DNA from: Spirochaetia bacterium
GTDB taxonomy: Bacteria; Spirochaetota; Spirochaetia; SZUA-6; Bin103
Assembly (NCBI GenBank): GCA_965203055.1
Contig: OZ241863.1
Location: 3,034,545 to 3,098,544, forward strand
DNA length: 64,000 nucleotides
Direction of reading: 5' to 3'
The position numbers and the translations under genes are program-made. Position 1 is the stretch's first letter, and each line of letters starts with the position of its first letter. The notes beneath the pieces are model-generated. The model ran no database searches and was not told the DNA's origin. It saw only the letters and a list, made by a program, of their open reading frames with translations. Below, one piece after another: positions 48,827 through 63,889 of the stretch.

Positions 48827-50587
48827 ATGATGAAACGCCTTGGTATTCTGATAATGACGCTGGCGCTGGCCGCGCCGTTCGCGCTCCTGGCCGGCGGAAC
48901 TGAAGAACAGACCGCGGTCGGCGAAGATGAGTGGGCGGAATATGAAGTATTCATGTTCACCCGCTTCGAGAACCTGTGGATGAACAATCCGGGGGACGTC
49001 GTCACCCCGTACATAGAGGAGAAGTTCAAGCTGCGCATCAGCGACCTGCAATGGCAGGGCGAGATGACGGCGCAGCAACGCATCGCCCAATACGCCGCCA
49101 CCGGATCGTGGCCGGACGTGTTCATCGGCGACCCCAACTTCCTGCAGCTCATGCTCAAGCAGGATGAGCACATGGACCTGACCGAGCTGGTGCCGCAGTA
49201 CATGCCCACCTACTGGAACGAGGTGATGACCGACGTCGATAAGCAGCTCAACTACGGCATGAGCGGCGGCGACGGCAAGATCGCGTTCATCTACAAGCAC
49301 AGCCTGCATCCGTTCGACCCGGCGAAGGACGACGATCCCTACACCGTGTTCAACCGCAGCTCGCACGCCCTGCAGACGCGCGAGGATCTGTTGACCGCGG
49401 CGGGGTATACCTTCAAGCCGATGGCCGAAATCGTGGCCGAGGCGCAGCGCACCGGCAAACCGCCGAGCCGGGAAGACTTCGCCCTCGATCCACCCATCGA
49501 CACGCCGGAGCAACTCACCGAGTACCTGCGCAAGATCAAGGCGATGAACCTGACCATGAACAACGCGCCGGTCTACCCGATCACCTGGGACTGGTCGATG
49601 TTTCACATTGGCACGATGTACGACTGGGGGCACTGGAAGTACAACTTCGAGACCCGGACCGCGGACGGCTACCTGGGCAGTCCGGGGGCCAAGGAATGGT
49701 TCTGGCTGGTCAATCGCTGGTACCAGGAAGGGCTCGTGGATCCTGACTTCCTGGTCGACAAGAAGGCGCAGATTCGCCAGAAGTACGCCGGCGGCCGGAT
49801 CGGCACGTTCTTCGACGTGTACGACCTGCCGGGGACCATCCGCGCGCTCAAGGCGCTCGATTCAAGCTACGTCATGCGCCCGATACCGATGGTCGAGGCC
49901 GATCCCTCCAACCACGGCTATTGGGACGCCTATGTGCCCGGTTGGTTCGACGTCGTGCTGAGCGCCGACCTGGATGAGTCGATTGCGATCCGGCTGCTGA
50001 AGATGTGGGACTGGATGTACACCCGCGAAGGGATGGAGATCCTGACCTGGGGGCCACCCGACAGCGGCTTGTGGGAGCTCCGCGACGGGGTCAAGGTGTT
50101 CACCGATCCGGCGGTATGGGAAGCGGGGCGCACCATGAGCGAAGGCCAGGGCGGACCGGAGGAGTATGGACTGCAGGCCCTGCGCGGCCATACCGAGGGC
50201 GACATGTGGTCGCGCATCGCCAATGCGAGCGCCGGCCCGCAAGCCGCCCGCTTCTTCCCTTCCAGCATCCAACGCAGCTATCCGCTGGATATCAACGATA
50301 CGCTGGTCTACAACGCCGGCAAGGTACTGACCGGGTTCAGCCACCACCGTCCGCTGCGCGGCAACGTGAGTTACGGCGTGGGCGAGGTGGTCGGCAAGAC
50401 TTCCGACTACTACTGGGGCGACTTCCGCACCGGGCTCAATCAGGACTTGACGTCGTTGATCAACGCCGAAACGCGGCAGGAGTACGATGCCGCATGGGAG
50501 GACGTGTTCTCCCGCTTCAAGCGCACCACCCGCTACGACGAGGCGCAACAGATCATGACCGAGTATTTTCAGAGCTACCTGGAGTAG
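48827..50587 (+). CDS. extracellular solute-binding protein, CUT1 family (sugar ABC)
   Basis: AGGAGG RBS. Signal peptide MMKRLGILIMTLALAAPFALLAGG. 586 aa. Confidence 0.8.
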   Translation: MMKRLGILIMTLALAAPFALLAGGTEEQTAVGEDEWAEYEVFMFTRFENLWMNNPGDVVTPYIEEKFKLRISDLQWQGEMTAQQRIAQYAATGSWPDVFIGDPNFLQLMLKQDEHMDLTELVPQYMPTYWNEVMTDVDKQLNYGMSGGDGKIAFIYKHSLHPFDPAKDDDPYTVFNRSSHALQTREDLLTAAGYTFKPMAEIVAEAQRTGKPPSREDFALDPPIDTPEQLTEYLRKIKAMNLTMNNAPVYPITWDWSMFHIGTMYDWGHWKYNFETRTADGYLGSPGAKEWFWLVNRWYQEGLVDPDFLVDKKAQIRQKYAGGRIGTFFDVYDLPGTIRALKALDSSYVMRPIPMVEADPSNHGYWDAYVPGWFDVVLSADLDESIAIRLLKMWDWMYTREGMEILTWGPPDSGLWELRDGVKVFTDPAVWEAGRTMSEGQGGPEEYGLQALRGHTEGDMWSRIANASAGPQAARFFPSSIQRSYPLDINDTLVYNAGKVLTGFSHHRPLRGNVSYGVGEVVGKTSDYYWGDFRTGLNQDLTSLINAETRQEYDAAWEDVFSRFKRTTRYDEAQQIMTEYFQSYLE

Positions 50588-50678
50588 CGGAGTCACCGCA
50601 TCCGGGGGCGGGGCGGCGGCGTGGTTACCGCGCCGCTCCCCGCCGTTTCGCAAGGATTTCGCAGCAAGGATACTGCAG

Positions 50679-51563
50679 ATGGCCAACGAGCAAACGGTGC
50701 GGCCGGCGCTGGCGGCCGCCGACTGGGAGCGGCTGAACGCCGCGCCGCTGCCTGACCTGGACGGCGAATACCCGCTCAGCGAGGCGCAGGTGGAGCGCTT
50801 CCGGGAGCAGGGATTCATCGTCCTGGAAGGGGTGCTGGACCGCGCCGAGATCACCGCCTACGGGGAGGCGATCCGCGCCGTCGCCATGGCCCACTTCCGC
50901 GCCCGCGGGCTGGCCGCGTCGTTCGGCGGCGCCTTCCTGCAGCAGCTCAACCTGCGCTACTGCTCCGACGCGGTGCGCAGCTTCGTGCTCAGCCCGCGCT
51001 TCGGGCGCATTGCCAGCCGCCTGCTGGGCGCGCCCGCGGTGCGCCTGTATCACGAGCAGGCGCTGTTCAAGCCGCCGGGCGGGATCGACTCGCACTGGCA
51101 CCAGGACCAGTTCTACTTCCCGTTCGACGATACCTTCACCCTGGGAATGTGGATGCCGCTGGTGGACTGCTCGCCGGACATGGGGCCGCTGCGCTTCATC
51201 GCCGGCTCGCACAAGTACGGCAACCTGGAGGGCATGTCGATCAGCGAGGAGTCGAAGCACTTCTTCGACGACTTCGCCGCGCGCGAGGGGCTGCAGGTGG
51301 TGCAGGTGCCTGGGCTTCGGGCCGGCGACTGCTCGCTGCACCTGGGCTGGACCGTGCACGGCGCGCCGGCCAACCGCTCGGACAAGATGCGCGAGGCGAT
51401 GACCGCCAACTACTTCCCCGACGGCGCGCGCATCACCGACCTGGCGCGCTCGCCGGACGGGCTGCGCTTCGTGGGCGGCCTGCTGCCCGGCCAGCTCGCC
51501 ACCAGCGCGATGAACCCGATCGTCTTTTCCGCCGCCGACGCGGCGGCGGCGGAGGGCGGCTGA
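50679..51563 (+). CDS. phytanoyl-CoA dioxygenase (PhyH) family oxygenase
   Basis: HWHQDQFYFP ... HLGWTVHGAPAN. Paralogous in fold to 30530..31405. Confidence 0.7.
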   Translation: MANEQTVRPALAAADWERLNAAPLPDLDGEYPLSEAQVERFREQGFIVLEGVLDRAEITAYGEAIRAVAMAHFRARGLAASFGGAFLQQLNLRYCSDAVRSFVLSPRFGRIASRLLGAPAVRLYHEQALFKPPGGIDSHWHQDQFYFPFDDTFTLGMWMPLVDCSPDMGPLRFIAGSHKYGNLEGMSISEESKHFFDDFAAREGLQVVQVPGLRAGDCSLHLGWTVHGAPANRSDKMREAMTANYFPDGARITDLARSPDGLRFVGGLLPGQLATSAMNPIVFSAADAAAAEGG

Positions 51564-53101
51564 TGGAGCAGTGGAGCGCCGCGCGCGCGAACGAGTGGTT
51601 CGCTTCGATCCCGCTGCCGTTCGGCTGCAACTTCCTGCCGAGCAGCGCGGTGAATAGCACCGAGATGTGGCAGGCGGAGAGCTTCGACCCGGCCACCATC
51701 GAGCGCGAGCTGAGCTGGGCGGCCGGGCTCGGCTACAACACGGTGCGCGTGTTCCTGCAGTTCATGGTCTGGGAGGCGGACCCGGAGGGCCAGAAGGAGC
51801 GCCTGGAGACGTTCCTCAGGCTGGCTGACGCGGCCGGCATTTCGATGATGCCGATCCTGTTCGACGATTGCCGCTTCGACGACCGCGACCCCTACCCGGG
51901 GCGCCAGGATGAGCCCAAGCCGGGGGTGCACAACAGCCGCTGGACGCCGAGCCCCGGCTACGCCGCGGCCGACGACCCGGCGCGCTGGCCGCAGCTCGAA
52001 GCGTACGTGACCGACCTGGTGGGGGCGTTCGGCGGCGACCGCCGGGTGCTGGTGTGGGACCTGTACAACGAGCCGGGCGGGGCGCGCCCCCAGGCCAGCC
52101 TGCCGCTGCTGGAGGCGGCGTTCCGCTGGGCGCGCGCCGCGCGGCCGCGCCAGCCGCTGACCGTGGGGTCATTCTTCTGGGACGACTACATGACCGAGAT
52201 TCGGCTTCGCGGCGAACGCAACTCCGACGTGGTGTCGTTCCACAGCTACGGCAACCTCAACGAAATCGGGGAGCGGCTCGACGAGCTGGCGCGGTACGGG
52301 CGGCCGCTGCTGTGCACCGAATGGCTGGCGCGCCACCACGGCTCCAAGTTCGCCAGCCACCTGCCGCTGTTCCGCGACCGCAACGTCGGCAGCTATCAGT
52401 GGGGGCTGGTGGCCGGGCGCACTCAGACCTTCCTGCACTGGTACACGCGCTACAGCCCGGAGCCGGCGCCGCCGGAGCCGCGCCTGTGGCTGCACGACGT
52501 GCTGCGGCGCGACGGCTCGCTGTACGATCCCGCGGAAGCCGCGCCGCTGCGCGCGCACGCCGGCGAGGAGCTGGCGCTGGAACCGGCGCCAATGACGCCG
52601 GAGCTGATGGCCGACCTGGAGCGGCGCGGGCTGATCATCCGCCTGCGGCCCGGCGCCCATGACCTGGCGGCGCGGCCGGGCGAGACCCTCGGCGAGTCGA
52701 TCTACGAGAGCGCTGGCCGGTACGGCCCGCACAAGCTGATCGCGGTCACCGTGAACCGCGCCGAGTTCGCGGCCTTCGGCACCCATCCCGACAACGAGGA
52801 GTTCCTGTTGCTCGGCAACCCCGACAGCCAGCCGCTGTACCTTGCGGTGGCGCTGTGCCTGCGGGAGGAGTTCGAGGACAAGGTGAAGAGCGGCCGGCTG
52901 ACCGCCGCGGACCTGGTGATGATCGAGTGCCGTTACAACGACCCGGAGGTGAGTTTCTTCGTGATGCGCGCCGGCGTGCCGCACGGCGAGGCGGTGATGC
53001 CGGCGGCGGGCAAGCCGGCGCCCAGCTTCTACGTCACCGAATCGCGCGACCTGCCGCTGGACCTGCTCGACCTGCGCAAGTACCGCCTGTCCGCGACCTG
53101 A
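51563..53101 (+). CDS. TIM-barrel glycoside-hydrolase-like domain fused to a C-terminal cupin-like domain
   Basis: The N-terminal half has GH5/GH113-like features (NTVRVFLQFMVWEADP, VLVWDLYNEPG, LCTEWL). The C-terminal roughly 150 aa are separate. The ATG overlaps the upstream stop. Confidence 0.45.
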   Translation: MEQWSAARANEWFASIPLPFGCNFLPSSAVNSTEMWQAESFDPATIERELSWAAGLGYNTVRVFLQFMVWEADPEGQKERLETFLRLADAAGISMMPILFDDCRFDDRDPYPGRQDEPKPGVHNSRWTPSPGYAAADDPARWPQLEAYVTDLVGAFGGDRRVLVWDLYNEPGGARPQASLPLLEAAFRWARAARPRQPLTVGSFFWDDYMTEIRLRGERNSDVVSFHSYGNLNEIGERLDELARYGRPLLCTEWLARHHGSKFASHLPLFRDRNVGSYQWGLVAGRTQTFLHWYTRYSPEPAPPEPRLWLHDVLRRDGSLYDPAEAAPLRAHAGEELALEPAPMTPELMADLERRGLIIRLRPGAHDLAARPGETLGESIYESAGRYGPHKLIAVTVNRAEFAAFGTHPDNEEFLLLGNPDSQPLYLAVALCLREEFEDKVKSGRLTAADLVMIECRYNDPEVSFFVMRAGVPHGEAVMPAAGKPAPSFYVTESRDLPLDLLDLRKYRLSAT

Positions 53102-53117
53102 AAAAGGGCCGGTTCGG

Positions 53118-53804
53118 GTGGAACGGCCGCACTATCACCAACACCGCCGGCGGCTGCGCGAACGCTTCCTCAAGAGCGGCGTGGCCGGGTTCGCCGAGCA
53201 TGAGGTCATCGAGCTGATCCTGACGCTGGCCATTCCCCGCCGCGACGTAAAGGAACCCGCCAAGGCGCTGCTCGCGCGCTTCGGCAACCTGCGCGGCGTC
53301 ATGGATGCGCCGCGTTCCGAATTGCAGGCCGTAGCGGGCGTGGGCGAAGTCGCCGCAACCGCGCTGCAAGTCATACGCGCGGTCGCCACGCTCTACCTGC
53401 AGCAGGCGTCCGAGGACGAAGCGGAAGCGCTGAGCGATCCCCGGCGGCTGAGCGACTTCTGGCGCATGCGGATCGGCGCCCTGAAGCACGAAGTGTTCGC
53501 CGTGGCATATCTGGATTCGGCGGGCCGGCTGCTCCGCGACGGCGTGGAGACCCTGCAGGAGGGCACCATCGACCGCGCCGCGGTGTATCCCCGCCGGGTG
53601 GCGGCGGCCGCGCTCCGGCGGGAGGCGGCGGCCATCGTGCTGGCGCACAATCATCCGAACGGCCTGCTGCAGCCGAGCGAGCACGACAAGCTGATCACGC
53701 GCGCGATCGTGCTGGCCGCCGAGACCGTCGGGCTGCGCGTCGTCGATCACCTGATCGTGGCCGCGCAGGACACCTTCAGCTTCCGGCAGGCCGGCCTGCT
53801 GTGA
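53118..53804 (+). CDS. radC: RadC-family JAB/MPN domain protein
   Basis: HhH N-terminal region and JAMM-like motif HNHPNGLLQPSEHD. GTG start. Confidence 0.75.
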   Translation: MERPHYHQHRRRLRERFLKSGVAGFAEHEVIELILTLAIPRRDVKEPAKALLARFGNLRGVMDAPRSELQAVAGVGEVAATALQVIRAVATLYLQQASEDEAEALSDPRRLSDFWRMRIGALKHEVFAVAYLDSAGRLLRDGVETLQEGTIDRAAVYPRRVAAAALRREAAAIVLAHNHPNGLLQPSEHDKLITRAIVLAAETVGLRVVDHLIVAAQDTFSFRQAGLL

Positions 53805-53887
53805 GCGCCGCCTGCCGTCCTGACGTTCGTTCGCTCGTCTCGACGGCGCCGGCCCGAAAAGGGTAGATTCCGGTCAGGAGAGTTGGA

Positions 53888-54628
53888 ATGCCGTTTACCG
53901 TCGAAGACTTCCAAGACTTGGTGCAACTGCTCGATGAGCGTCCGGAGTGGCGGTCGGAACTGCGTCGTCTGGTATTGAGCGACGAGTACCTGGCGCTGCC
54001 GGAGCAGCTTGCCGAGTTCCGGCGCGACATGGAACAGCGCTTTATCGAGGTCGAGAAGCAGATCGCCGACCTGCGGCGCGACATGGAGCAGCGTTTTTGC
54101 GAAGTCGAGAAGCAGATCGCTGAACTGCGGGGCGACACCGACGTCCACTTCCATCGTGTCAACGTGCAGATCGGGCAACTCAAGGGCGAGAACCTGGAGC
54201 GGCGCTACCGGGAACGCGCGCACGCCTACTTCGGCCGGCTGCTCCGCAAGGGCCGGGTGGTAGGGTCGCAAGAACTGTCCGATCTCCTGGAGGAAGCGGC
54301 CGACCGCGGCGTCCTGTCGCAGAGCGACCGGGAGGAGGTGGCGTGGGCCGATCTGATCATGCGCGGCCGGTGGCGCGCTGACGGCCGGCAGGTCATGGTG
54401 CTCGCGGAGGTCTCGTGGGTCGTCGACCGCAACGACGTGCGGCGGGCCGTGGACCGGGCGGCGCTGCTGAGCCGGCTGGGCACGCCGGTGGTGCCGGTGG
54501 TCGCCGGAGACTCCGTCACCGAGCGCGCGGCGGACATGGCGCGCAGCCGCAACGTGTGGCAAATGCTCGATGGCCGATTGGTTGAACCGGATGGCATGAG
54601 CCAGACTGAGTTGGCAGCGCGTCCGTAA
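53888..54628 (+). CDS. hypothetical coiled-coil protein (DUF3782-like?) with an internal 22 aa duplication
   Basis: EFRRDMEQRFIEVEKQIADLRR immediately repeated as DMEQRFCEVEKQIAELRG. The C-terminal region has a possible restriction-endonuclease-like motif (VLAEVSWVVDRND). Confidence 0.4.
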   Translation: MPFTVEDFQDLVQLLDERPEWRSELRRLVLSDEYLALPEQLAEFRRDMEQRFIEVEKQIADLRRDMEQRFCEVEKQIAELRGDTDVHFHRVNVQIGQLKGENLERRYRERAHAYFGRLLRKGRVVGSQELSDLLEEAADRGVLSQSDREEVAWADLIMRGRWRADGRQVMVLAEVSWVVDRNDVRRAVDRAALLSRLGTPVVPVVAGDSVTERAADMARSRNVWQMLDGRLVEPDGMSQTELAARP

Positions 54629-54637
54629 GCGGCCGCG

Positions 54638-56146
54638 ATGACACCCGCTGATCTGGAAGTCCTCATCCAGCAGGGCGAAGGCACGACGCTCGAATTCAAG
54701 GAAGCGGTGTCGTCGTCGTTCGCGCGGGAGCTCGTGGCGCTGGCCAACACCGTCGGCGGGAAGATTTTGCTAGGTGTACGGGACGATCATTCCATCGTCG
54801 GGATCCGGGACGCCAACGAGCTGCGCGCCCGACTCCAGGGCCTTGCCCGCAACTGCGATCCTCCGGTGAAGGTGCGCGTGGAGCCGGTCGGCAACGTGCT
54901 GGTGGTCCACGTACGGGAGAGCGACGCCAAACCGGTGCAGTGCAGCGACGGGTTCTTCAGTCGCCAAGGCGCGGTAACGCAGAAGCTGAACCGAAACGAG
55001 ATCCGCGACTTCTTCCGGGTCGAAGGGGCGATCCGGTTCGACTTGGCGGTTTGCCCCCGGTTCCGCTATCCGGAGGACTTCGACCGCGAGAAGTACGACC
55101 GGTGGGTAGGTTACTCCGGCATCACCGGACGGCCGCCGGTGGAGGACACTCTGGTCAACATCGAGGCGGCCGAGCGGGCTGGCGACCGGCTGCTGTTCCG
55201 CAACGCCGGCGTGCTGTTCTTCGCCCGGAACGTGCGGCACTTCTTCCCGGAGGCATATATCACCTGTCTGTTGGGCCGGGGGACCGACAAGGTTCACATT
55301 CTGGATCGCAAGGACTTCGCCGGGGGGACCGTGGCCGACATCGAGGAAGCCATGCGCTTCATCGAGCGCAATACCCGCACCGCCTACCGGATCGAGGGCC
55401 TGCGCCGGGAAAACGTCCCGGAGTACCCGATGAACGCGCTGCGCGAGGCGATCACCAACGCGGTCATGCATCGCGACTGGTTCTACAACGGCACCAACGT
55501 GTTCGTGGAGCTCTACGCCGACCGCATCGAGGTGATCAGTCCCGGCAGCCTGCCCCCCGGCCTGACCGTTGCCGAGCTGGGGCGCCGGAGCGTGCGGCGC
55601 AACCCGCTCATCTCCGACCTGCTCCACCGCATCGAGTTCATCGAGATGGCCGGCACCGGCATCCGGCGCATCCGGGAGGAAGCGCGGGCGCGCCGCTGCC
55701 CGGAGCCGACGTTCGAGGCCAACAGCTTCGTGACCGTCACCTTCCGGCCCAACCCCGAGGTGCGGGCGGCGACCGGCGATGATGGGACTACCGGGGAAGT
55801 CACCGGGGATGTTACCGGGGTAGTTACGCCGCAGGAGACGCATCAAACCCCTTCCCGGGCAACCACCGGGGAAGTCACCGGGGATGTTACCGGGGAAGTC
55901 ACCGGGGAAGTCGCGGCGGTTGTCCGGCTGCTGCGAGCGATGGCCGGCGACATGACCAGGCAGCATCTCCAGGAGGCGCTTGGCCTGAAGCACGAGGACC
56001 ACTTCCGCAGTGCGTACCTGCAGCCCGCTCTGCGCGCCGGCCTGGTAGAAATGACCATCCCCGACAAGCCGCGCAGCCGCAGCCAGCGCTACCGGCTGAC
56101 GCCCGCCGGCAGCCGCTACCTGAGACGAACGGAGGAGACCCCGTAG
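54638..56146 (+). CDS. AlbA_2 (Schlafen-like) + HATPase_c_4 (RecG C-terminal-like) putative DNA-binding / ATP-binding regulator
   Basis: The N-terminus TLEFKEAVSSSFARELVALANTVGGKILLGV is typical of AlbA_2. The C-terminal HATPase_c_4-like region is ...NALREAITNAVMHRDW. A linker carries TGEVTGDVTG heptad-like repeats. Confidence 0.7.
   Translation: MTPADLEVLIQQGEGTTLEFKEAVSSSFARELVALANTVGGKILLGVRDDHSIVGIRDANELRARLQGLARNCDPPVKVRVEPVGNVLVVHVRESDAKPVQCSDGFFSRQGAVTQKLNRNEIRDFFRVEGAIRFDLAVCPRFRYPEDFDREKYDRWVGYSGITGRPPVEDTLVNIEAAERAGDRLLFRNAGVLFFARNVRHFFPEAYITCLLGRGTDKVHILDRKDFAGGTVADIEEAMRFIERNTRTAYRIEGLRRENVPEYPMNALREAITNAVMHRDWFYNGTNVFVELYADRIEVISPGSLPPGLTVAELGRRSVRRNPLISDLLHRIEFIEMAGTGIRRIREEARARRCPEPTFEANSFVTVTFRPNPEVRAATGDDGTTGEVTGDVTGVVTPQETHQTPSRATTGEVTGDVTGEVTGEVAAVVRLLRAMAGDMTRQHLQEALGLKHEDHFRSAYLQPALRAGLVEMTIPDKPRSRSQRYRLTPAGSRYLRRTEETP
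55789..55911 (+). repeat. 12-nt tandem repeats (accggggaagtc / accggggatgtt) in two blocks inside the AlbA_2/HATPase gene
   Basis: Block 1 is three units at 55789-55824 and block 2 is four units at 55864-55911. They encode TGEV/TGDV repeats. Confidence 0.8.
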
Positions 56147-56166
56147 ATGGCGAAGATCGATGGCCC
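56061..56166 (+). repeat. about 95 bp direct duplication (copy 1) of the AlbA_2-gene 3' end plus the mod 5' start; copy 2 is at 57221-57306
   Basis: gccgcagccagcgctaccgg...ccgctacctgagacgaa(c/t)ggaggagac(c/g)ccgtagATGgcgaagatcga occurs at both sites. Copy 1 ends the AlbA_2 gene and copy 2 immediately precedes mod #2. Confidence 0.8.
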
Positions 56167-56950
56167 GCGTACTATAGGTGCCACGGCGTCGCGCAGGCTC
56201 TCAGCCCCTCGCGTGGGATCGACGTTGCCGGTCCGTATCCGCCAAGGCCAGTTCCTCGACGGCGGCCATAGCACGCTCAGGACCGCTGGCTCGACCAGGG
56301 CCTGCGCGGGCGCGCAGCGGTCGGCGACGGCTTGCGCGGCGGCAGCTTCTCGCCGGTGTACGCGTCCCACTCGTTGCCGTCAGCGTCGGCCATGATAAAG
56401 CGGTCCTCGCGGCGCACCCTGCCGCTCGCGAGCGACTCCCGGACCCCTTCCGGCGTCAGCTCCCCGAGCGGGCGCCCGGAGTAGTCGCTGTCTACGGCTT
56501 GGGTTTCGTCGGCTTCTTCTTTCTGCTTGCCCATCTGCGACTCATCAGGAGCTTGTCATTGGCTTGCGCGATCGGCACGAACTCGTCATACGGCCACTGC
56601 CTGACCCGCAACACCCTGTTCTTTGTGGGTGAGCATCTTGTCGAGCTGCGCCTTTAGGACCGATGACCCGCTCCGCCACGCAATATACTGCGCATACGCC
56701 CGCGCCCACAACTCGGCCTCGTGGGTCAGGTAGGTATCGCCCTGCAGGAGCGCATACCTCTTGCTCTGCAGGATCGCCTTATGACCGCCTGCATCGTCCG
56801 AGTCGACTCCCGCTTAGACTCGAGGTCGTCTATTTCGGCGACGCCCTTCTTTGACATGCCCGACGTCAGTACGCGCCGGCGCGAGTGCCCGCCGGCGCGC
56901 AGCCTGGATGCCTGTTTGACTGATGATACCATGGCGAATACCATATAGCC

Positions 56951-57220
56951 GTGGTCATTACCATAGATCGCGACGGGCGCGTCGTAGTGCCGAAGCAGTT
57001 CCGTGACCGCTTCAACTTGGTTGCTGGTACGCAGTTGGAGATCGAAGCCGCAGGTGACGGGCTGAAGCTTCGTAAGGTCGTAAGCGAGCCGACGCTGGTT
57101 CGGAAGAAAGGGTTCCTGGTGCATCACGGCACTGCTCGTCCCGACATCGATATCGTCGAGTTCATCCGTGCCGAGCGCGACGCCCGCAGCCGTCATATTG
57201 CCACGGACACCACGGATTGA
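56951..57220 (+). CDS. AbrB/MazE/SpoVT-family antitoxin-like DNA-binding protein
   Basis: The N-terminus (V)ITIDRDGRVVVPKQFRDRFNLVAGTQLEIE is the swapped-hairpin AbrB signature. GTG start. An upstream TTGACT and three ACCATA/ATACCAT repeats suggest an autoregulated promoter. Confidence 0.65.
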   Translation: MVITIDRDGRVVVPKQFRDRFNLVAGTQLEIEAAGDGLKLRKVVSEPTLVRKKGFLVHHGTARPDIDIVEFIRAERDARSRHIATDTTD

Positions 57221-57288
57221 TGCGCAAGCCGCAGCCAGCGCTACCGGCCGGCCGCCGCTACCTGAGACGAATGGAGGAGACGCCGTAG

Positions 57289-59247
57289 ATGGCGAAGATC
57301 GACGTCACCCGGACCGAGCTGGTCTGGCCGGGCAAGTACAACGAAGACGGCACGCTCAATGAAGCGCCGCGCGTCAACCTGCCGTTCCAGGTCATCGAGA
57401 CCGTCAACGAGAGCCGCGCCACCCGCGAGGCGCGCAAGACGAAGGGCATGTCATTATTCGACGTGTACGAGGGCACCGAAGGCGATACCTTCGAGGAGGG
57501 TTGGCGGAACAAGCTGATCTGGGGCGACAATCTGCTGGTGATGGGCTCGCTCCTGGAGAAGTTCGCCGGAAAGATCGATCTGATCTACATCGACCCACCA
57601 TTCGCGACCGGAGCAGACTTCTCATTTACGGCGCCAATAGGAGAGTCCGGGGAAGAAGTGTTCAAGGCGCAATCTGCCATTGAGGAGAAAGCATATCGTG
57701 ATACATGGGGAAGTGGGCATTCATCTTATGTTTCCATGCTCCATGATCGCTTGATGCTTATACGAGAACTCCTTTCAAGTACCGGCAGCGTATATGTACA
57801 CATTGATCCCCGGGTAGACTATCTTGTCAGAGGTATTCTCGATGACGTATTCGGTCAAGAGTCATTTCGTAACGTCATTGTCTGGAAGCGAGACGTTGCA
57901 GGTAAAGGAGCCAAGAGAACCAGCAGTCAATGGCCACGAAATGCAGACACAATAATTTGGTATGGTAGGTCTCCGGCATCGTGGACGTTCGAACAACAGT
58001 ATGCGCAGTTGAGCGATGATCAGAAGAAACCATATCGATACCACGATTCGAACGGCCGTCGGTATAAGGCAGTTCAACTCGGTGACTACTCCGAAAGATC
58101 AATTGCAATTATGGTTCAGAAAGGGATGATTCATACTTCCTCCACTGGTAAGATGTATAAGAAATACTACTTGGATGAAGCTCGCTCGACAATCGACTGT
58201 ATTTGGACCGATATTCTTGGTTTTGGAACAAAGACCGCCTCGCACGAGATTCAAGGATTCCCTACTCAGAAGCCTGAGATGCTACTTGAACGTATTGTCG
58301 CTGCGTCATCCAAGAAGGGGGACCTCGTAGCCGACTTCTTCTGTGGTTCGGGAACTACCCTTGCCGTGGCCGAGAAGCTCGGGCGCCGCTGGATCGGCTG
58401 CGACCTGGGCCGCTGGGGAATACACGTCACCCGCAAGCGGCTACTTGGTATCGAAGACTGCAAGCCGTTCGAAATTCTGAATCTCGGCAAGTATGAACGG
58501 CAGTACTGGCAGGGCGCGACCTTCAGCGAACAAGGCTCCGAGCAGGCGCTCTACGAGTACCTCGCGTTCATCCTCAAGCTGTACGGCGCGCAACCGGTCG
58601 CCGGCATGGCGCACGTGCACGGCAAGAAGCATCGGGCCATGGTCCACGTCGGCGCGGTGGATGCGCCGGTGACTATCGACGAGATCGAACAGGCGGTCAA
58701 CGAATGCCAGCGGCTCCGCCAGAACGAGCTGCACGTGCTAGGTTGGGAGTGGGAGATGGGGCTGGCTGGCCCCAACAACGACCTGCGCAAGGGCGGATTG
58801 ATGCACGAATCGGCCAAGGCGCGCGGCGTCAAGCTCATCCTGCTGCAGATACCGCGCGAGGTGATGGAGCAGCAGGTGCGCGACGAGAACGACGTGCGCT
58901 TCTTCGAGCTGGCGTACCTGGAAGCGGCGGTCGAGACTCCGGATACGCTGACCGCGCAGGTGCGGCTCGAGGACTTCGTCATTCCCAACGACGAGCTGAT
59001 CCCGGACGAGGTGCGCGGCAAGGTCCGGCAGTGGTCCGATTACATCGACTACTGGGCGGTGGATTGGGACTTCCGCAACGACACCTTCATGCAGGGCTGG
59101 GTAACCTACCGCACGCGCAAGGAGCGCAGTCTGCCGCTCGCCTCCGATCCGCACCGCTACGAATCTCCCGGCACCTATCAGGTGCTGATCAAGGTAATCG
59201 ACATCTTCGGCAACGACACGTCGCAATGCTACCCGGTGACGGTATGA
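57289..59247 (+). CDS. mod: type III RM Mod subunit #2 (DNA methyltransferase) with a low-GC central target-recognition region
   Basis: Motif IV IDPPFATGADF, motif I FFCGSGTTLAVAEKLGRRWIGCDL. The N-terminus is homologous to Mod #1. 57660-58340 is about 45% GC while the flanks are about 68% GC. Confidence 0.85.
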   Translation: MAKIDVTRTELVWPGKYNEDGTLNEAPRVNLPFQVIETVNESRATREARKTKGMSLFDVYEGTEGDTFEEGWRNKLIWGDNLLVMGSLLEKFAGKIDLIYIDPPFATGADFSFTAPIGESGEEVFKAQSAIEEKAYRDTWGSGHSSYVSMLHDRLMLIRELLSSTGSVYVHIDPRVDYLVRGILDDVFGQESFRNVIVWKRDVAGKGAKRTSSQWPRNADTIIWYGRSPASWTFEQQYAQLSDDQKKPYRYHDSNGRRYKAVQLGDYSERSIAIMVQKGMIHTSSTGKMYKKYYLDEARSTIDCIWTDILGFGTKTASHEIQGFPTQKPEMLLERIVAASSKKGDLVADFFCGSGTTLAVAEKLGRRWIGCDLGRWGIHVTRKRLLGIEDCKPFEILNLGKYERQYWQGATFSEQGSEQALYEYLAFILKLYGAQPVAGMAHVHGKKHRAMVHVGAVDAPVTIDEIEQAVNECQRLRQNELHVLGWEWEMGLAGPNNDLRKGGLMHESAKARGVKLILLQIPREVMEQQVRDENDVRFFELAYLEAAVETPDTLTAQVRLEDFVIPNDELIPDEVRGKVRQWSDYIDYWAVDWDFRNDTFMQGWVTYRTRKERSLPLASDPHRYESPGTYQVLIKVIDIFGNDTSQCYPVTV

Positions 59248-59583
59248 ACGAGCTGCACCTTACGCCCGAGGAGAGCGCATGGTTGCGCGCATATCGGAGT
59301 CTGATACGTCGGCGGTACCCGGAAACGGTGGCGCGAATGCTCGTCTATGGTTCCAAGGCGCGCGGCGACGCCCACGCCGACAGCGACCTGGACGTTCTCA
59401 TCATCGTCCGGAACGACGCCGCCGACGAAGCGGGAGCTGCGCGGAATCGGCTACGATCTGGCGGCAACCTCCCACGCGGTGCCGTCGATCCTGGCGTATT
59501 CGCTGAAGGAATGGCAGGAACGGAGCGCACGGGGGTACCCGTTCCAACGCGCGGTCGAGCGCGACGGCGTGTCCGTCCTGTGA
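59244..59583 (+). pseudogene. MNT-type nucleotidyltransferase #2 between mod and res, carrying a +1 frameshift near 59425
   Basis: Frame A reads MNELHLTPEESAWLRAYRSLIRRRYPETVARMLVYGSKARGDAHADSDLDVLIIVRND. Frame B continues RELRGIGYDLAATSHAVPSILAYSLKEWQERSARGYPFQRAVERDGVSVL*. The ATG overlaps the mod stop (ATGA), and the res ATG lies 10 nt after frame B's stop. Confidence 0.65.
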
Positions 59584-59592
59584 AATCGGACG

Positions 59593-62364
59593 ATGGCTGA
59601 GTCGGTCGTTTCTTACGACCGGGACCTGCCGCAGATTGCCGGCCGTCTGCCGTGGGAGGCGCCGTGCTCCTGCCTGGTGAAGGACGACGCGGCGCGCACC
59701 GGCTGGCGCGAGGATCGTTCCGGGCGGCGCCCGAGCCAACTGCTGCTGGTGCCGAAGATTCGCGACGCGGTGGACTCATGGCGCGCGGCCGGGTACGACG
59801 GCGCGTCCGGCGTGACCAAGCGGCTGTTCGCGTACTGGTTCGAGGAGGATCACGAAGTCTCAGGCTTCGACGCGCCGTTCCGGTACTATTTCTGCCAGCG
59901 CGAGGCGATCGAGACACTGGCGTGGCTGGTGGAAATCGCCGGCAGGCGCGACGCGCTCGCGTTGATCCGGGACTACGGGACGATCTCCGTCACCGATCGG
60001 TTTCAGACCGCGATGGACGGCCGGCGGCAGCTTCGCCGTTATGTCCCGGAACTGGATAAGGACGTCGAGCAGGAGCTGCCGCCGGAGAACTTGCGCCGCT
60101 ACGCCCTCAAGCTGGCGACCGGCGCCGGCAAGACCTGGGTGATGGCGATGGCGGTCGTGTGGTCGCGCTTCCACCGGCTGCGCGTGGCAGACTCCGAACT
60201 CTCCACCAACTTCCTCATCGTCGCCCCCAACGTGATCGTCTATCAGCGGCTCGAAAGGGACTTCGCCAACAACAATATCTTCCACCGGTTGCCGCTGATC
60301 CCGCCGGAGTGGAAGGGCAGCTTCACCCAGAAAGTGATCCTGCGCGGCGAGGCCGCCGAACCCGCTCCGTCCGGGAATCTGTTTCTCACCAACATCCAGC
60401 AACTCTACGAGTCGCGCGACGATACCTGGACTCCCGCGAACCCCGTCGAGGCGCTATTGGGAGAGAAACCGGCGCAGGATCTCGCGGGGTCCGCCGGGCG
60501 TTCCATGCTGGAACGGGTCAAGTCGCTCCCCGATCTGGTGGTGATGAACGATGAGGCGCACCACGTGCACGACGAGGACCTGGCGTGGAGCAGGTCGCTG
60601 CTCGGCGTTCACGGTGGGCTGCCGCAGGGGGTCGGCGCCTGGCTCGACTTCTCGGCCACGCCCAAGGACCGGAACGGCATGTACTTCCCGTGGACGGTGT
60701 GCGACTACCCGCTGGCGCAGGCGGTGGAGGACCGGATCGTCAAGGCGCCGATCATCGTCACCAACGAGGACGACGCCGGGCAGCCGGCGCAAGACCCGGA
60801 GGGGGTGACGAAGGACAATGTCGCCGCCAAGTACGGCTACTGGCTGCAAGCCGCGGTACGGCGCTGGCAGGAGCACCGCGCCGCGTACGGCCCGCTCGGC
60901 ATCAAACCGGTGCTCTTCATCATGGCGGAGAAGAACGTCTACGCCGACGCGTTGGGCGAGTATCTCGTCACGACCGCAGGATTCAAGACGTCAGAGGTAC
61001 TGGTGATCCACACCGACACCACCGGCGAGGTGCGGAAGGGAGACCTGGAAAAGGCGCGGCAGGCGGCGCGCGACATCGACCGCCGCGGCAGCCGGATCAA
61101 GGCGATCGTGAGCGTGATGATGCTGCGCGAGGGCTGGGACGTGCGCAACGTGACGGTCGTGCTGGGGCTGCGGCCGTTCACCGCCAAGGCGGAGATCCTG
61201 CCGGAGCAGGTGATCGGGCGCGGGCTGCGGCTCATGACGCAGGTGAGCCCGGACCGCACGCAGACGCTGGAGGTGCTCGGCACGCGCAATCTGCTCAACG
61301 TGCTGCGCGAGCAACTGGAAGCCGAGGGAGTCGGCGTGGCCAGCACGGCGCAGGGTCCGCCGCCGCCGGTGACCATCGCACCGGTGCGGGAGCGGCTGGC
61401 GCACGACATCGCGATCCCCCTCACCAAGCCGAGTCTGACGCATGACTCCCGCAAGCTGTCGGAGCTCGACGTGCAGTCGCTCATTCCGATCTACGAATCG
61501 AACGATCTGGCGGAACCGGTGCGAATCACGATGCGGATGGAGTTCGCGACCACGGAGACCGAAGTCCATCAGGCGGCCTTGGCGCCGGAGGGGAGTCCGG
61601 CGCGGGAGCTCCTGGCCGGCATCGCCGGCGAGGTGAGCAAGCGGACCGGGCTCACCAACCGGTTCGCCGAGCTCTACCCGATCGTGCGGCGGTACGTGGC
61701 GGAGCGCTGCTTCGGCGGGCCGGTCGACGTGGAGGATTCCGGGATTCGATCGCACCTGACGCGGCTGGAACTGCGCGAAGGAATCGCCCGCTATCTGGCC
61801 GGGGCGATCGGCGAGCTCACCGTCGAACGCCGCTCGCTGCAGTTCGAGCGCACCGACTTCCGGCTGTCCGCTACCAGACCGTTCAGTTGGCGGCGCAATC
61901 TGCCGCCCCTCGAAGCCGACAAGACCGTGTTCAACTACGTGGCGACCTACAACGAGTTCGAGCGCAGCTTCGCCGAGTTCCTGGACCGCGCGGCCGACGT
62001 GCCGCGCTTCGCCGCGCTGGGCACCACCGATCAGGGCAGCTCCGGCACCGCGTTCCGCGTCGACTACCTGAAGGCGAGCGGCGCCATCGGCTTCTACTAT
62101 CCCGACTGGGTAGCCGTCCAGCAAACCGAAGACGGCGCCGAAGACGGCGAGGTGCACTGGATCATCGAAACCAAGGGCCGCGTCTGGGAAGGCACCGACC
62201 GGAAGGACGCCGCAATGCGCGAGTGGTGCCGGCGCGTGCACGACGCCGCCGGCATCGTCTGGCGCTACCTGCGCGTCAACCAAGCCGAGTTCCGCAAGCT
62301 CCCGCCCGACTCCCCGACCCTCAAGGCCCTGATCGCGCAACTCTCCGACGACGCCCTGTCTTGA
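59593..62364 (+). CDS. res: type III restriction endonuclease Res subunit #2
   Basis: LATGAGKT (Walker A), VMNDEAHH (DEAH box), C-terminal PD-(D/E)xK-like VHWIIETKG. 923 aa. Confidence 0.85.
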   Translation: MAESVVSYDRDLPQIAGRLPWEAPCSCLVKDDAARTGWREDRSGRRPSQLLLVPKIRDAVDSWRAAGYDGASGVTKRLFAYWFEEDHEVSGFDAPFRYYFCQREAIETLAWLVEIAGRRDALALIRDYGTISVTDRFQTAMDGRRQLRRYVPELDKDVEQELPPENLRRYALKLATGAGKTWVMAMAVVWSRFHRLRVADSELSTNFLIVAPNVIVYQRLERDFANNNIFHRLPLIPPEWKGSFTQKVILRGEAAEPAPSGNLFLTNIQQLYESRDDTWTPANPVEALLGEKPAQDLAGSAGRSMLERVKSLPDLVVMNDEAHHVHDEDLAWSRSLLGVHGGLPQGVGAWLDFSATPKDRNGMYFPWTVCDYPLAQAVEDRIVKAPIIVTNEDDAGQPAQDPEGVTKDNVAAKYGYWLQAAVRRWQEHRAAYGPLGIKPVLFIMAEKNVYADALGEYLVTTAGFKTSEVLVIHTDTTGEVRKGDLEKARQAARDIDRRGSRIKAIVSVMMLREGWDVRNVTVVLGLRPFTAKAEILPEQVIGRGLRLMTQVSPDRTQTLEVLGTRNLLNVLREQLEAEGVGVASTAQGPPPPVTIAPVRERLAHDIAIPLTKPSLTHDSRKLSELDVQSLIPIYESNDLAEPVRITMRMEFATTETEVHQAALAPEGSPARELLAGIAGEVSKRTGLTNRFAELYPIVRRYVAERCFGGPVDVEDSGIRSHLTRLELREGIARYLAGAIGELTVERRSLQFERTDFRLSATRPFSWRRNLPPLEADKTVFNYVATYNEFERSFAEFLDRAADVPRFAALGTTDQGSSGTAFRVDYLKASGAIGFYYPDWVAVQQTEDGAEDGEVHWIIETKGRVWEGTDRKDAAMREWCRRVHDAAGIVWRYLRVNQAEFRKLPPDSPTLKALIAQLSDDALS

Positions 62365-62420
62365 CGCGGACCGCTACCCGCCGAGTGGAGAAGATGGAGT
62401 CCTTGCCTTGCTTGGCGCTG

Positions 62421-63581
62421 TCACGGGCCGGCCGGGGCGGTTGCGAGGAAGTTGATGAAGCCGTCGAGGTCGCATACTACTTGGTGGTCGCGGGCCAGCC
62501 ACGGGCTGCGCCGGCAGATCAGGAACCGCCGGCTGGCGGCGATCAGGTCGGCGGCGGCGTTGAGGCGCTTCAGGTCGTCGAGTCCGGGGCGGGTGGTCAG
62601 CTTGACTTCGAGCGCCCACAGTTCCGTGCCGACGCGCAGCACCAAGTCGATTTCGCGCTGGTCGCTGGTGCGGAACGAGAATGCCTCGAACGGTCGTCCG
62701 GCGTGCCGCAAGGCCGTGAACACCTGGTCGATGACGAACCCCTCCCAACTGGCCCCGACCCACGGCTGATTCAGCAGCTCGCCGGCGCTGGCGCCAAGCA
62801 GCGCGTGCAGCAGCCCGCTGTCGCGCCAGTAGACGCGCGGGCGCTTGACGATGCGCTTGCGGATGTTGGCGTGGAACGGGAGCAGGCGGCGGATCAGGAA
62901 CGCGCCTTCGAGGTAGTCCAGGTAGCTGTTGACCGTGTGGTAGGAGAGGGCCAAGCTCTTGCCGATCTGGGTGGCGTTCCACTCCTGGCCGTTGGTCGCC
63001 GCCAGCATCTGCAGCAGGCGCCGCGTGGTCGGCGCGCGGGCGGGCAGCCCCCAGTTCGGCAGGTCGCGCTGCATCAGCAGGTCCAGGTAATCGTGCTGCC
63101 ACTGGGGAAAGCCGCGCCCGGTCAGCACGCCGCCGTCCGCATACCCGCCGCAGAGCCACAGCCGTTCCCGCTGCCCGGGAGCGGCCAGTTCCGACCATGA
63201 CAACGGCGCCAGTTCCACCACCGAGAGTCGGCCGGCCAGCGACTCCGAGACCTGGGTCATGAGCGCCGGCGAGACCGATCCCAGCAGCAGGAACCGCCCC
63301 ATGCGCCGGCGGTCGTCGTCGATGGCGCCGCGCAGGCGCGGAAACACCTCCGGCCACGCCTGCGCCTCGTCCAGCACGATCAGTTCGCGTCCGCTGACCA
63401 CCGTGTCCCACGTCAGGTCCAGGCGCAGCCGGTCGCTCTCCTGCTCCAGGTCGAAGTAGACGCCGCCGAGCGACCGGGCCAACGTAGTCTTGCCGCACTG
63501 GCGCGGCCCCACCAGCGCCGCCGCCGGATAGTTGCGGAGCCGCGCGAGCAGCACCGGCGTCAGGCCCCGTTCCACCATCAC
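62421..63581 (-). CDS. AAA ATPase with DUF4143 domain (second copy of this family)
   Basis: Walker A GPRQCGKTTLA and Walker B LIVLDEAQ. Confidence 0.75.
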   Translation of the reverse strand: MMVERGLTPVLLARLRNYPAAALVGPRQCGKTTLARSLGGVYFDLEQESDRLRLDLTWDTVVSGRELIVLDEAQAWPEVFPRLRGAIDDDRRRMGRFLLLGSVSPALMTQVSESLAGRLSVVELAPLSWSELAAPGQRERLWLCGGYADGGVLTGRGFPQWQHDYLDLLMQRDLPNWGLPARAPTTRRLLQMLAATNGQEWNATQIGKSLALSYHTVNSYLDYLEGAFLIRRLLPFHANIRKRIVKRPRVYWRDSGLLHALLGASAGELLNQPWVGASWEGFVIDQVFTALRHAGRPFEAFSFRTSDQREIDLVLRVGTELWALEVKLTTRPGLDDLKRLNAAADLIAASRRFLICRRSPWLARDHQVVCDLDGFINFLATAPAGP

Positions 63582-63604
63582 TACGACATTTTAGAAATCG
63601 ATTT

Positions 63605-63889
63605 CTATTTTGCAAGATTGGGGGCGCGGAGCTGGTGCAGCCGGTAGTCCTTCTCGATGCCGAGCCAGATTTTGGCATCGACGCCGAGCACCATCTCGAA
63701 CTGGAGGGCGGTCTTTGGCTCGATCGGGGCCTTCCCGGCGATGATCTCGCTGATGAGCTTCGCGGACCGGCCGCACCGACGTGCGAACTCGGCTTGAGAG
63801 ACGCCGTGCGCCTCCAGGCGTTCCTCCAGCACCAGCCCGGGCGGAACCGCATAGTCAGGCCGGTACTCATTGATCGCTGCCGTCGCCAT
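63605..63889 (-). CDS. higA: HigA-family HTH (XRE) antitoxin
   Basis: GVSQAEFARRCGRSAKLISEIIAGKAPIEPKTALQFEMVLGVDAKIWLGIEKDYRL matches the HigA antidote family. GGAGGA RBS upstream. Confidence 0.7.
   Translation of the reverse strand: MATAAINEYRPDYAVPPGLVLEERLEAHGVSQAEFARRCGRSAKLISEIIAGKAPIEPKTALQFEMVLGVDAKIWLGIEKDYRLHQLRAPNLAK

What the first reader, a model, noticed from the sequence alone, without database searches (positions are those of the whole stretch)
57660..58340. Mod #2 is a mosaic whose central target-recognition region is low-GC and looks like a recent specificity swap
The N-terminal (motif IV DPPF) and C-terminal (motif I FxGxG) parts of Mod #2 are about 68% GC like the host. 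The roughly 680 bp between them is about 45% GC with AT-rich codons. In type III Mod proteins the central region between the conserved blocks is the DNA-recognition domain and is known to be exchanged horizontally (ModA allele shuffling). The sharp composition boundaries suggest a target-recognition-domain cassette acquired from a low-GC donor. That would have changed the methylation and restriction specificity of this system.
Basis: partly seen in the sequence, partly recalled or inferred. Interest (0 to 1): 0.6.

Follow-up and report, generated by a model that had tools for sequence, protein, structure and literature searches.

The report
Swapped specificity cassette in a methylase
The middle third of this DNA-methylase gene has been exchanged by recombination, which probably gave the restriction system a new target sequence; this kind of swap is already known, and the low GC content is a shared trait of such cassettes, not proof of a low-GC donor.

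Summary
Within Mod #2 (57289-59247, +), a ~755-nt tract (about 57579-58330) has 47.5% GC and GC3 0.46. The rest of the gene has GC3 0.87 and the window averages 68% GC. It is the lowest-GC tract of its size in the window (z = -4.5). The mosaic is real. A syntenic relative (L004, ~96% nt over 13 kb) matches the gene at 97% on both sides but only 51% inside the tract. An unrelated organism (L001) matches at 95.5% inside the tract and 76% downstream. Crossovers map to 57570-57588 (motif IV, IYIDPPF) and 58326-58335 (just before motif I, FFCGSG). The swapped unit is larger than the TRD: it carries motifs V-VIII, the TRD (about aa 203-320) and motif X. Five related genomes carry five different cassettes at this one locus. 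The "recent low-GC donor" part is not supported. All five sister cassettes are equally AT-rich. Every relative of this cassette found (95-72% aa) sits in a 61-67% GC host. Synonymous changes show no amelioration. A lower-GC3 centre is family-wide (49/54 and 53/58 loci). En-bloc exchange of type III Mod recognition domains, with a lower-GC domain, is already published for modA. This is a new member of a known kind. The persistent AT shift is unexplained.

The parts
57289..59247 (+). Mod #2: a 652-aa beta-class N6-adenine methyltransferase, the Mod subunit of a type III R-M system. The ORF is intact.
   Evidence: Pfam N6_N4_Mtase covers aa 96-373, E=1e-38. PADLOC MTase_III PDLC03633, E=9e-120. 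Best solved relatives are EcoP15I Mod 4zcf by sequence and by fold (weak model).
57289..57578 (+). 5' backbone segment with host-like codon use (GC3 about 0.89).
   Evidence: 97% nt identity to the syntenic relative L004; 87-94% to L001. GC3.
57570..57588 (+). Left crossover interval, in the codons for IYIDPPF (motif IV).
   Evidence: Maximum chi-squared on 481 informative sites: 386, against a permutation maximum of 17. The alignment is shown.
57592..57603 (+). Motif IV, DPPF (aa 102-105), the catalytic motif.
   Evidence: Translation. Invariant in 41 homologues.
57579..58330 (+). Exchanged central cassette (about aa 98-347): motifs V-VIII, the TRD and motif X. GC 0.475, GC3 0.46.
   Evidence: 96% of informative sites inside follow L001, and 93% outside follow L004. 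Across 57712-58331 the nt identity is 95.5% to L001 and 50.9% to L004. GC3 change-points fall at 57595 and 58362.
57895..58248 (+). Target-recognition domain proper (about aa 203-320), the hypervariable core.
   Evidence: It lies between the blocks that align to EcoP15I Mod, MboIIA and CcrM (query 73-202 and 321-390). It is the conservation minimum, at 17-32% identity across 120 homologues. TRD cores are 14-32% identical between alleles that share a 92-99% identical C-terminus.
58326..58335 (+). Right crossover interval, immediately 5' of motif I.
   Evidence: Maximum chi-squared. The alignment shows the window switching from L001-like to L004-like here.
58339..58353 (+). Motif I, FCGSG (aa 351-355), the AdoMet-binding motif.
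   Evidence: Translation. Invariant in homologues.
58332..59247 (+). 3' backbone: motifs I-III plus the family-specific C-terminal domain. GC3 0.86.
   Evidence: 96.6% nt identity to L004 and 76.4% to L001. PADLOC MTase_III profile positions 292-612 match aa 324-646.
59244..59583 (+). MNT-type nucleotidyltransferase gene between mod and res, apparently frameshifted in this genome.
   Evidence: The intact 112-aa L004 homologue (Pfam NTP_transf_2) matches the window in two frames.
59593..62364 (+). Res subunit (923 aa): helicase plus a C-terminal endonuclease. It is not part of the swap.
   Evidence: Pfam ResIII E=3e-13; RE_endonuc is below its cutoff. PADLOC REase_III. About 95.7% nt identity to L004 throughout. 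GC3 0.89 with no internal dip.

Best explanation
Mod #2 is the methyltransferase and specificity subunit of a chromosomal type III restriction-modification system. Its central ~750 bp were replaced in situ by homologous recombination with another member of the same Mod family. That block encodes catalytic motifs V-VIII, the target-recognition domain and motif X. The crossovers fell in the two blocks that are nearly invariant at the nucleotide level across the family: the motif IV (IYIDPPF) region and the motif I (FFCGSG) region. These act as built-in homology arms around a non-homologous core. In type III enzymes Mod alone reads the DNA sequence, and Res is recruited by Mod. The swap should therefore have changed both the methylated and the restricted sequence at once, without creating a lethal mismatch between the two activities. 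This last step is inferred.

The immediate donor was most likely another GC-rich bacterium of the same community that carries this Mod family. The cassette's low GC was inherited from the pool of cassettes. It is not a mark of a low-GC donor or of recency.
For: Shown:
(1) L004 is syntenic with window 50265-63617 at ~96% nt, except for the mod centre 57711-58255 and a 1-kb indel upstream.
(2) Protein identity to P0007 (L004) is 98/41/99/98% for the N, centre, C1 and C2 segments. To P0003 (L001) it is 91/95/88/72%.
(3) Of 481 informative sites, the best two-breakpoint split puts the crossovers at 57570-57588 and 58326-58335. Chi-squared is 386, against a permutation maximum of 17.
(4) The junctions are present in an independent metagenome assembly, L006, which is 100% identical over 56289-60247. 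The mosaic is therefore not an assembly chimera.
(5) Five related genomes (flanks 91-96% nt) carry five unrelated cassettes at the same locus. The 13 proteins of the backbone clade carry 7 alleles whose TRD cores are 14-32% identical.
(6) Among 95 family genes there are 62 alleles, and 99 pairs have a C-terminus >=90% identical but a centre <50% identical.
(7) L001, L004 and L090 come from one metagenome sample, ERZ25070167.
(8) Family assignment: PADLOC MTase_III E=9e-120 and REase_III; EcoP15I Mod is the best solved relative.

From the literature: en-bloc DRD exchange between modA alleles, a lower-GC DRD in modA12, and alleles defined by the DRD (Gawthorne et al. 2012, PMC3311624).
Against: The change of specificity is inferred from TRD divergence and was not measured. 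The actual donor was not found: the nearest cassette is 95.5% nt identical. The direction of the event cannot be fixed, because the ancestral allele at this locus is unknown and the sister lineages may also be the ones that changed. The left crossover rests on few informative sites, because all three sequences are 97-99% identical over 57576-57711. The cassette includes part of the catalytic domain, so 'TRD swap' understates what moved.
Confidence: 0.85

Rival explanations
1. One reading: the cassette came recently and directly from a low-GC organism, and its AT-richness is an unameliorated foreign signature.
For: GC3 is 0.46 in a host whose genes have GC3 0.80-0.95. Other alleles of the family do occur in hosts from 37% to 65% GC.
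Against: All relatives of this allele (95-72% aa identity: L001, L087, L088, L089, L092, L094-97) are in 61-67% GC hosts with GC-rich backbones. Four other alleles at the same locus are equally AT-rich. No relative above 46% identity was found on viral contigs, plasmids or phages. The nearest relative is 4.5% diverged, so the event is not demonstrably recent.
Confidence: 0.12
2. The exchange is real, but the low GC is maintained locally and not imported. The non-homologous core cannot pair with other alleles, so it escapes GC-biased gene conversion. Alternatively, AT-rich coding is selected in TRD DNA. Under either mechanism the cassettes sit at an AT-shifted equilibrium wherever they reside.
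For: Centre GC3 is below backbone GC3 in 49/54 GTDB loci (Wilcoxon p=3e-9) and in 53/58 metagenome loci (p=2e-10). Centre GC3 tracks host GC (r=0.78) but stays about 0.18 lower. There is no amelioration signal on the window/L001 cassette lineage (binomial p=1e-6 against the host-equilibrium expectation). Mod #1, an unrelated MTase in the same window, also has a lower-GC3 block at its TRD position.
Against: The size of the effect here (0.46 vs 0.87) far exceeds anything seen in the other window ORFs tested apart from Mod #1. The same TRD family reaches GC3 0.94 in an orphan MTase (L093) and 0.84 in L075, so high GC3 is attainable. The L087 lineage does show a W>S excess (15:2). Single-outgroup parsimony with small counts is fragile.
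Confidence: 0.3
3. Artefact: the mosaic is an assembly chimera joining reads from two co-occurring organisms that both carry this conserved gene family.
For: The relatives L001, L004 and L090 co-occur in one metagenome. The crossovers lie in nearly identical sequence, which is where assemblers can switch templates.
Against: The same 652-aa protein is on a 4.56-Mb NCBI contig and on separate ENA contigs. L006 is 100% identical over 3,959 nt spanning both junctions. The cassette is only 95.5% identical to L001, so it is not a copy of that co-assembled organism.
Confidence: 0.03

Closest known systems
modA / modB / modD / modH allelic DNA-recognition-domain (DRD) exchange in Haemophilus influenzae, Neisseria and Helicobacter pylori type III Mod genes (Gawthorne et al. 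2012, PMC3311624)
   Same: [quoted passage not shown] Whole-domain (en-bloc) replacement occurs between alleles and between species. The DRD has lower GC than the flanks (reported for modA12). Many alleles occur on one backbone at one locus.
   Different: There are no simple-sequence repeats in or before the gene, so there is no evidence of phase variation or a phasevarion role. The hosts are GC-rich environmental bacteria, not host-adapted pathogens. The Mod family differs: it has a long, highly conserved C-terminal domain and is only distantly related to EcoP15I and ModA. The exchanged unit extends from motif IV to motif I and so includes motifs V-VIII and X.
EcoP15I (type III R-M; Mod2Res1; structure 4ZCF)
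   Same: Beta-class motif order: IV-VIII, TRD, X, I. EcoP15I Mod is the best solved relative by sequence (E=2e-15) and by fold (E=1e-17). The adjacent Res has a ResIII helicase region and a C-terminal endonuclease-like region.
   Different: Sequence similarity is confined to the motif blocks (15-17% identity in the fold alignment). The C-terminal 280 aa have no sequence match to EcoP15I. An MNT-type gene sits between mod and res.
Domain movement and TRD shuffling in type I hsdS and type IIG enzymes (Furuta, Abe and Kobayashi 2010, PMC2853133)
   Same: Specificity is diversified by swapping recognition domains between conserved flanking sequences in closely related genomes.
   Different: Those cases involve S subunits or fused R-M-S proteins, often with repeat-mediated or invertase-mediated movement within one genome. 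Here a single TRD-bearing block of a Mod gene was replaced by allelic recombination with an external copy.

Membership tests
Type III restriction-modification system (Mod + Res) | The Mod subunit is a beta-class N6-adenine MTase with motif order IV (DPPY/F) ... TRD ... X, I (FxGxG). | tested here: met
   DPPF at aa 102-105 and FCGSG at aa 351-355. Pfam N6_N4_Mtase E=1e-38. HMMER alignment to EcoP15I Mod, MboIIA and CcrM places motifs IV-VIII at aa 73-202 and X/I at aa 321-390.
Type III restriction-modification system (Mod + Res) | The Mod matches curated type III Mod models in preference to type II or orphan MTase models. | tested here: met
   The best PADLOC hit is MTase_III PDLC03633, E=9e-120, covering the C-terminal domain. 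The best type II model scores 5e-57. NCBIfam has no model above its cutoff.
Type III restriction-modification system (Mod + Res) | An adjacent co-oriented res gene encodes an SF2 helicase-like ATPase with a C-terminal PD-(D/E)xK endonuclease. | tested here: inconclusive
   Res at 59593-62364: Pfam ResIII E=3e-13. RE_endonuc scores 19.3 bits, below its 23.4 cutoff. PADLOC REase_III E=6e-17. NCBIfam BPTD_3080-family restriction endonuclease scores 268 bits, below its 800 cutoff. The helicase part is met; the nuclease motif was not verified residue by residue.
Type III restriction-modification system (Mod + Res) | Activity: hemimethylation of a short asymmetric site, and ATP-dependent cleavage that needs two inversely oriented sites. 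| not testable with these tools
   This needs a methylome and biochemistry.
Allelic TRD/DRD exchange in type III mod genes (modA-type) | A near-identical 5' and 3' backbone with an unrelated central domain in closely related genomes at the same locus. | tested here: met
   Window vs L004: 97% / 51% / 97% nt for 5' flank, centre and 3' flank, within 13 kb of ~96% synteny. Five alleles occur at one locus.
Allelic TRD/DRD exchange in type III mod genes (modA-type) | The same central domain occurs on a different backbone or in a different organism (en-bloc transfer). | tested here: met
   L001: centre 95.5% nt, 3' part 76.4% nt, and flanking genes about 75% or unalignable.
Allelic TRD/DRD exchange in type III mod genes (modA-type) | Different alleles methylate different sequences. 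| not testable with these tools
   Inferred only, from 14-26% TRD-core identity between this allele and the other alleles on the same backbone.
Phasevarion (phase-variable Mod) | A simple-sequence repeat tract in the mod ORF or promoter that causes ON/OFF switching. | tested here: not met
   Tandem Repeats Finder finds no array in 56000-59300. The only hit is a 2-copy 12-mer inside res.

The most novel reading that the evidence does not exclude
The recognition cassettes of this very widespread type III Mod family may be held at an AT-shifted synonymous composition as a rule. They sit about 0.2 GC3 units below their own backbone in over 100 loci from many bacterial and archaeal phyla, and 0.4 below in this clade. 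The lineage studied here shows no drift toward host composition. If this is not just lagging amelioration, there are two readings. One is a hidden lower-GC reservoir that continually reseeds specificity cassettes across phyla. The other is a local mechanism, such as the non-homologous core escaping GC-biased gene conversion while the flanking homology arms experience it. The second reading would make these genes a natural within-gene experiment on what maintains high GC in bacteria. It would also give a sequence-only signature for finding specificity cassettes.
Probability: 0.25. Interest if true: 0.6.

Novelty: new member of a known kind. Interest (0 to 1): 0.35.

Why it matters
For this genome, the type III system probably recognises a different sequence from the systems of its closest relatives. 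That would erect a restriction barrier and a different methylome between strains that are ~96% identical. More generally, the locus is a clean example from uncultured GC-rich environmental bacteria of the recombination logic known from pathogen mod genes. Crossovers map to within 10-20 nt inside catalytic motifs IV and I, and five alleles occupy one locus. The side observation could matter beyond R-M biology if it reflects a mechanism such as biased gene conversion and not just repeated import: cassettes are systematically AT-shifted across phyla, and this one shows no amelioration.

Tried and rejected
(1) Search for a low-GC donor of this cassette. This used a centre-only protein search, a metagenome scan, a viral-contig scan, and plasmid and phage tblastn. 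Only GC-rich hosts carried this allele. Nothing above 46% identity appeared on viral contigs, plasmids or phages.

(2) The short MTases that topped the centre-only search. P0121 is a fragment of a frameshifted type III mod on a 2x-coverage contig. P0122 is a true orphan 345-aa MTase, but in a 73% GC host with GC3 0.94, so it is not a donor.

(3) The second GC dip at 36600-37200 as 'Mod #1'. Rejected: it has no long ORF. Mod #1 is at 12231-14810 on the minus strand.

(4) L006 as an independent context for the same protein. It is the same strain (100% nt), so it only serves as an assembly control.

(5) Phase variation. No repeats were found.

(6) Internal promoters in the AT-rich tract. One weak consensus match, not above the shuffled expectation in any meaningful way.

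(7) Structure prediction. Mean pLDDT was 58 with a 41-sequence alignment. Only residues ~150-310 are confident. The fold search supports the family assignment but not detailed domain boundaries.

(8) Identifying the source organism by name. Cluster look-up gave no names. The nearest named record is a MAG titled 'Spirochaetia bacterium' (L011), which I did not verify.
Full report
**1. The observation**

Mod #2 is the ORF 57289-59247 (+), 652 aa. Sliding 200-nt windows show GC of 0.425-0.485 across 57600-58300, against 0.60-0.70 on either side. In 700-nt windows it is the deepest dip in the whole 64-kb window. The tract later defined by recombination, 57576-58331, has GC 0.475. All 756-nt windows average 0.680 with sd 0.045 (z = -4.5), and no other window comes within 0.02 of it.

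The signal sits at synonymous sites. GC3 drops from about 0.9 to 0.4-0.5, while GC1 and GC2 change little. A two-breakpoint likelihood fit puts the low-GC3 block at codons 103-358 (nt 57595-58362), with GC3 0.46 inside and 0.87 outside. The likelihood ratio is 126, against a permutation maximum of 20. Five other long ORFs of the window (res and four others) give LR 12-21 and have no low-GC3 block.

Three details need correcting. The flanking parts of the gene are 62-63% GC overall, although their GC3 is host-like. The centre is 47.5% GC.

**2. What the gene is**

- Pfam N6_N4_Mtase covers aa 96-373.
- DPPF (motif IV) is aa 102-105 and FCGSG (motif I) is aa 351-355. Both are invariant in 41 homologues.
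- HMMER against solved structures aligns aa 73-202 to EcoP15I Mod residues 94-229 (motifs IV-VIII). It aligns aa 321-390 to the motif X/I region of MboIIA, CcrM and RsrI. The TRD proper is therefore about aa 203-320 (nt 57895-58248). This is also the conservation minimum, at 17-32% identity across 120 homologues.
- The best PADLOC model is MTase_III, E=9e-120.
- The next gene, 59593-62364, is a 923-aa Res. ResIII scores E=3e-13, PADLOC gives REase_III, and the endonuclease domain is below its cutoff.
- A weak AlphaFold model (pLDDT 58, confident only at ~150-310) finds EcoP15I Mod and the H. pylori type III Mod as top folds.
- No tandem repeats are present, so there is no sign of phase variation.

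**3. The mosaic**

The family is very conserved: 120 listed homologues have 61-87% identity at 99-100% coverage. Identity is strongly segmental.

| Relative | N-terminal | Centre | C1 | C2 |
|---|---|---|---|---|
| P0007, P0013 | 98% | 36-41% | 99% | 98-99% |
| P0010 | 87% | 39% | 97% | 99% |
| P0003 | 91% | 95% | 88% | 72% |

At the DNA level, L004 (which encodes P0007) is syntenic with window 50265-63617 at ~96%. The exceptions are 57711-58255, which does not align, and a ~1-kb indel upstream. L001 (which encodes P0003) belongs to a different organism: its flanking genes are ~75% identical or unalignable. Nucleotide identities are in the table below.

| Segment | Window vs L001 | Window vs L004 |
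|---|---|---|
| 57712-58331 (centre) | 95.5% | 50.9% |
| 58332-59247 (3' part) | 76.4% | 96.6% |

Of 481 informative sites, 96% inside the best tract follow L001 and 93% outside follow L004. Maximum chi-squared is 386, against a permutation maximum of 17. The crossovers fall at 57570-57588 (the IYIDPPF codons) and 58326-58335 (just before FFCGSG). These coincide with the GC3 change-points to within about 10-30 nt.

The mosaic is not an assembly artefact. An independent metagenome contig, L006, is 100% identical over 56289-60247, which spans both junctions.

**4. It is one of many swaps**

L004, L011, L090, L091 and the window share the same chromosomal neighbourhood, with flanks 91-96% nt identical. 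Each carries a different central allele. Among the 13 proteins whose C-terminal 230 aa are 92-99% identical, there are 7 alleles with TRD cores only 14-32% identical. Across 95 family genes in hand there are 62 alleles. There are also 99 pairs with a C-terminus >=90% identical but a centre <50% identical.

The blocks around motif IV and motif I are nearly invariant even at the nucleotide level between distant backbones (L001 vs L004 is 92-98% over 57401-57711). This explains why crossovers occur there. It also explains why the exchanged unit (motifs V-VIII, TRD and motif X) is larger than the TRD.

**5. The low-GC donor idea**

This part of the interpretation does not hold up.

- All five alleles at this locus have centre GC3 of 0.43-0.58, against a backbone of 0.83-0.91, in 67-69% GC hosts.
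- Every relative of this particular allele lies in a 61-67% GC host, on a GC-rich backbone, with centre GC3 of 0.44-0.62. These relatives are L001 (95%), L087 (84%), L088 (77%), L094-97 (76%), L092 (74%) and L089 (72%).
- No relative above 46% identity was found on viral contigs, plasmids or phages.
- AT-rich codons are not forced by the protein. The same TRD family reaches GC3 0.94 in an orphan MTase (L093) and 0.84 in L075.
- The lower-GC3 centre is family-wide: 49/54 GTDB loci (p=3e-9) and 53/58 metagenome loci (p=2e-10). It tracks host GC but sits about 0.18 lower.
- Synonymous third-position changes on the window/L001 cassette lineage are W>S 9: S>W 11. About 90% W>S is expected if it were relaxing toward host GC3 (binomial p=1e-6). 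The L087 lineage shows 15:2.

Low GC thus marks the cassette's boundaries but does not show recency or a low-GC donor. An ultimate lower-GC reservoir is not excluded, and the balanced substitution pattern is compatible with one.

**6. Timing**

The nearest cassette (L001) is 4.5% diverged. The sister strain's backbone is 3-4% diverged. The swap is therefore of roughly the same age as the split from L004-type strains. That is recent on the scale of species, but it is not demonstrably a fresh event, and the true donor is unsampled. L001, L004 and L090 come from the same metagenome sample. Donors and recipients therefore co-occur.

**7. Mechanism and consequence**

Shown: allelic replacement with mapped crossovers in conserved motifs. 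Inferred from established knowledge of type III enzymes (Mod carries sequence recognition for both methylation and restriction): the replacement re-targets both activities together. This avoids self-restriction and creates a new barrier between sister strains. Res is unaffected, at ~95.7% identity to L004 throughout.

**8. Comparison with the known**

This is the same kind of event as the en-bloc DRD exchange described for modA in Neisseria and Haemophilus. That work also noted that the modA12 DRD has lower GC than its flanks, and it defines alleles by the DRD alone (PMC3311624). TRD diversification between close genomes is also documented for type IIG and type I systems (PMC2853133).

The differences here are:
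- no phase-variation repeats;
- GC-rich environmental hosts;
- a distinct Mod family with a long conserved C-terminal domain;
- an exchanged unit spanning motif IV to motif I.

A search of the held literature found no general statement that TRDs are systematically AT-shifted.

**9. Verdict**

The mosaic and swap interpretation is supported. The 'recent acquisition from a low-GC donor' part is not supported. This is a new member of a known kind, of moderate-to-low interest by itself. The family-wide, non-ameliorating AT shift of the cassettes remains unexplained. It is echoed by a weaker lower-GC3 block at the TRD position of the unrelated Mod #1 in the same window. This is the part worth a follow-up.

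Noticed in passing
window 12231-14810 (-), especially 13647-13889: Mod #1 is an 859-aa ORF only 30-35% identical to Mod #2. It also has an internal lower-GC3 block (0.59 vs 0.93, LR 60) lying between its two MTase homology blocks, which is its TRD position.
   Followed up: partly
window 56065-57300: About 1 kb (56160-57130) is absent from the syntenic relative L004. It carries an AbrB/MazE-like ORF at 56951-57220 (TIGR01439, E=2e-10). It is bounded by a degenerate duplicate of the mod 5' end: 56065-56160 is about 85% identical to the sequence around the mod start at 57289 ('MAKIDGPRT' vs 'MAKIDVTRT'). This looks like an insertion with target duplication, or a remnant of an earlier mod rearrangement.
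   Followed up: partly
window 36600-37200 and 35176-36560: A 35-45% GC patch has no long ORF. Part of it (36650-36792) is 76-78% similar to 56884-57030, upstream of the AbrB-like gene. Next to it is an HNH-endonuclease-like gene read in two overlapping frames (possible frameshift). Homologous copies lie downstream of res in L004 and L090, and in L011 a copy occupies the place of res.
   Followed up: no
window 59244-59583: The MNT-type nucleotidyltransferase gene between mod and res is split over two reading frames here. It is an intact 112-aa gene in L004. In L087 and L088 it is paired with a HEPN gene, a toxin-antitoxin-like pair embedded in the R-M operon.
   Followed up: partly
L011 (OZ241907.1, titled 'Spirochaetia bacterium'), locus 6850-7900: This close relative keeps mod but has lost most of res, leaving an apparently orphan Mod with yet another TRD allele.
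   Followed up: no
L087 316-2109 and 4537-6507: One contig carries two paralogous mod genes of this family with different central alleles (GC3 0.67 and 0.51). They are separated by GmrSD and HEPN genes. This could be an in-genome source of cassettes for exchange.
   Followed up: no
L001, L004, L088-L091 and window 53119-62364: The neighbourhood is conserved around this Mod family in different organisms: RadC, then UvrD/PDDEXK helicase-nuclease or SLFN_AlbA_2/HATPase_c_4 genes, then mod, MNT with or without HEPN, res, and sometimes a PIN gene. This suggests a larger defence island that travels or is assembled together.
   Followed up: no
family-wide (L007-L181): This Mod family is unusually conserved (backbone about 77-87% aa identity across the 120 best hits). 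It is found in many bacterial phyla and in archaea (Methanothrix, Bathyarchaeia, Woesearchaeota). In mid-GC hosts the backbone GC3 (about 0.67) is well above the centre GC3 (about 0.41-0.48).
   Followed up: partly
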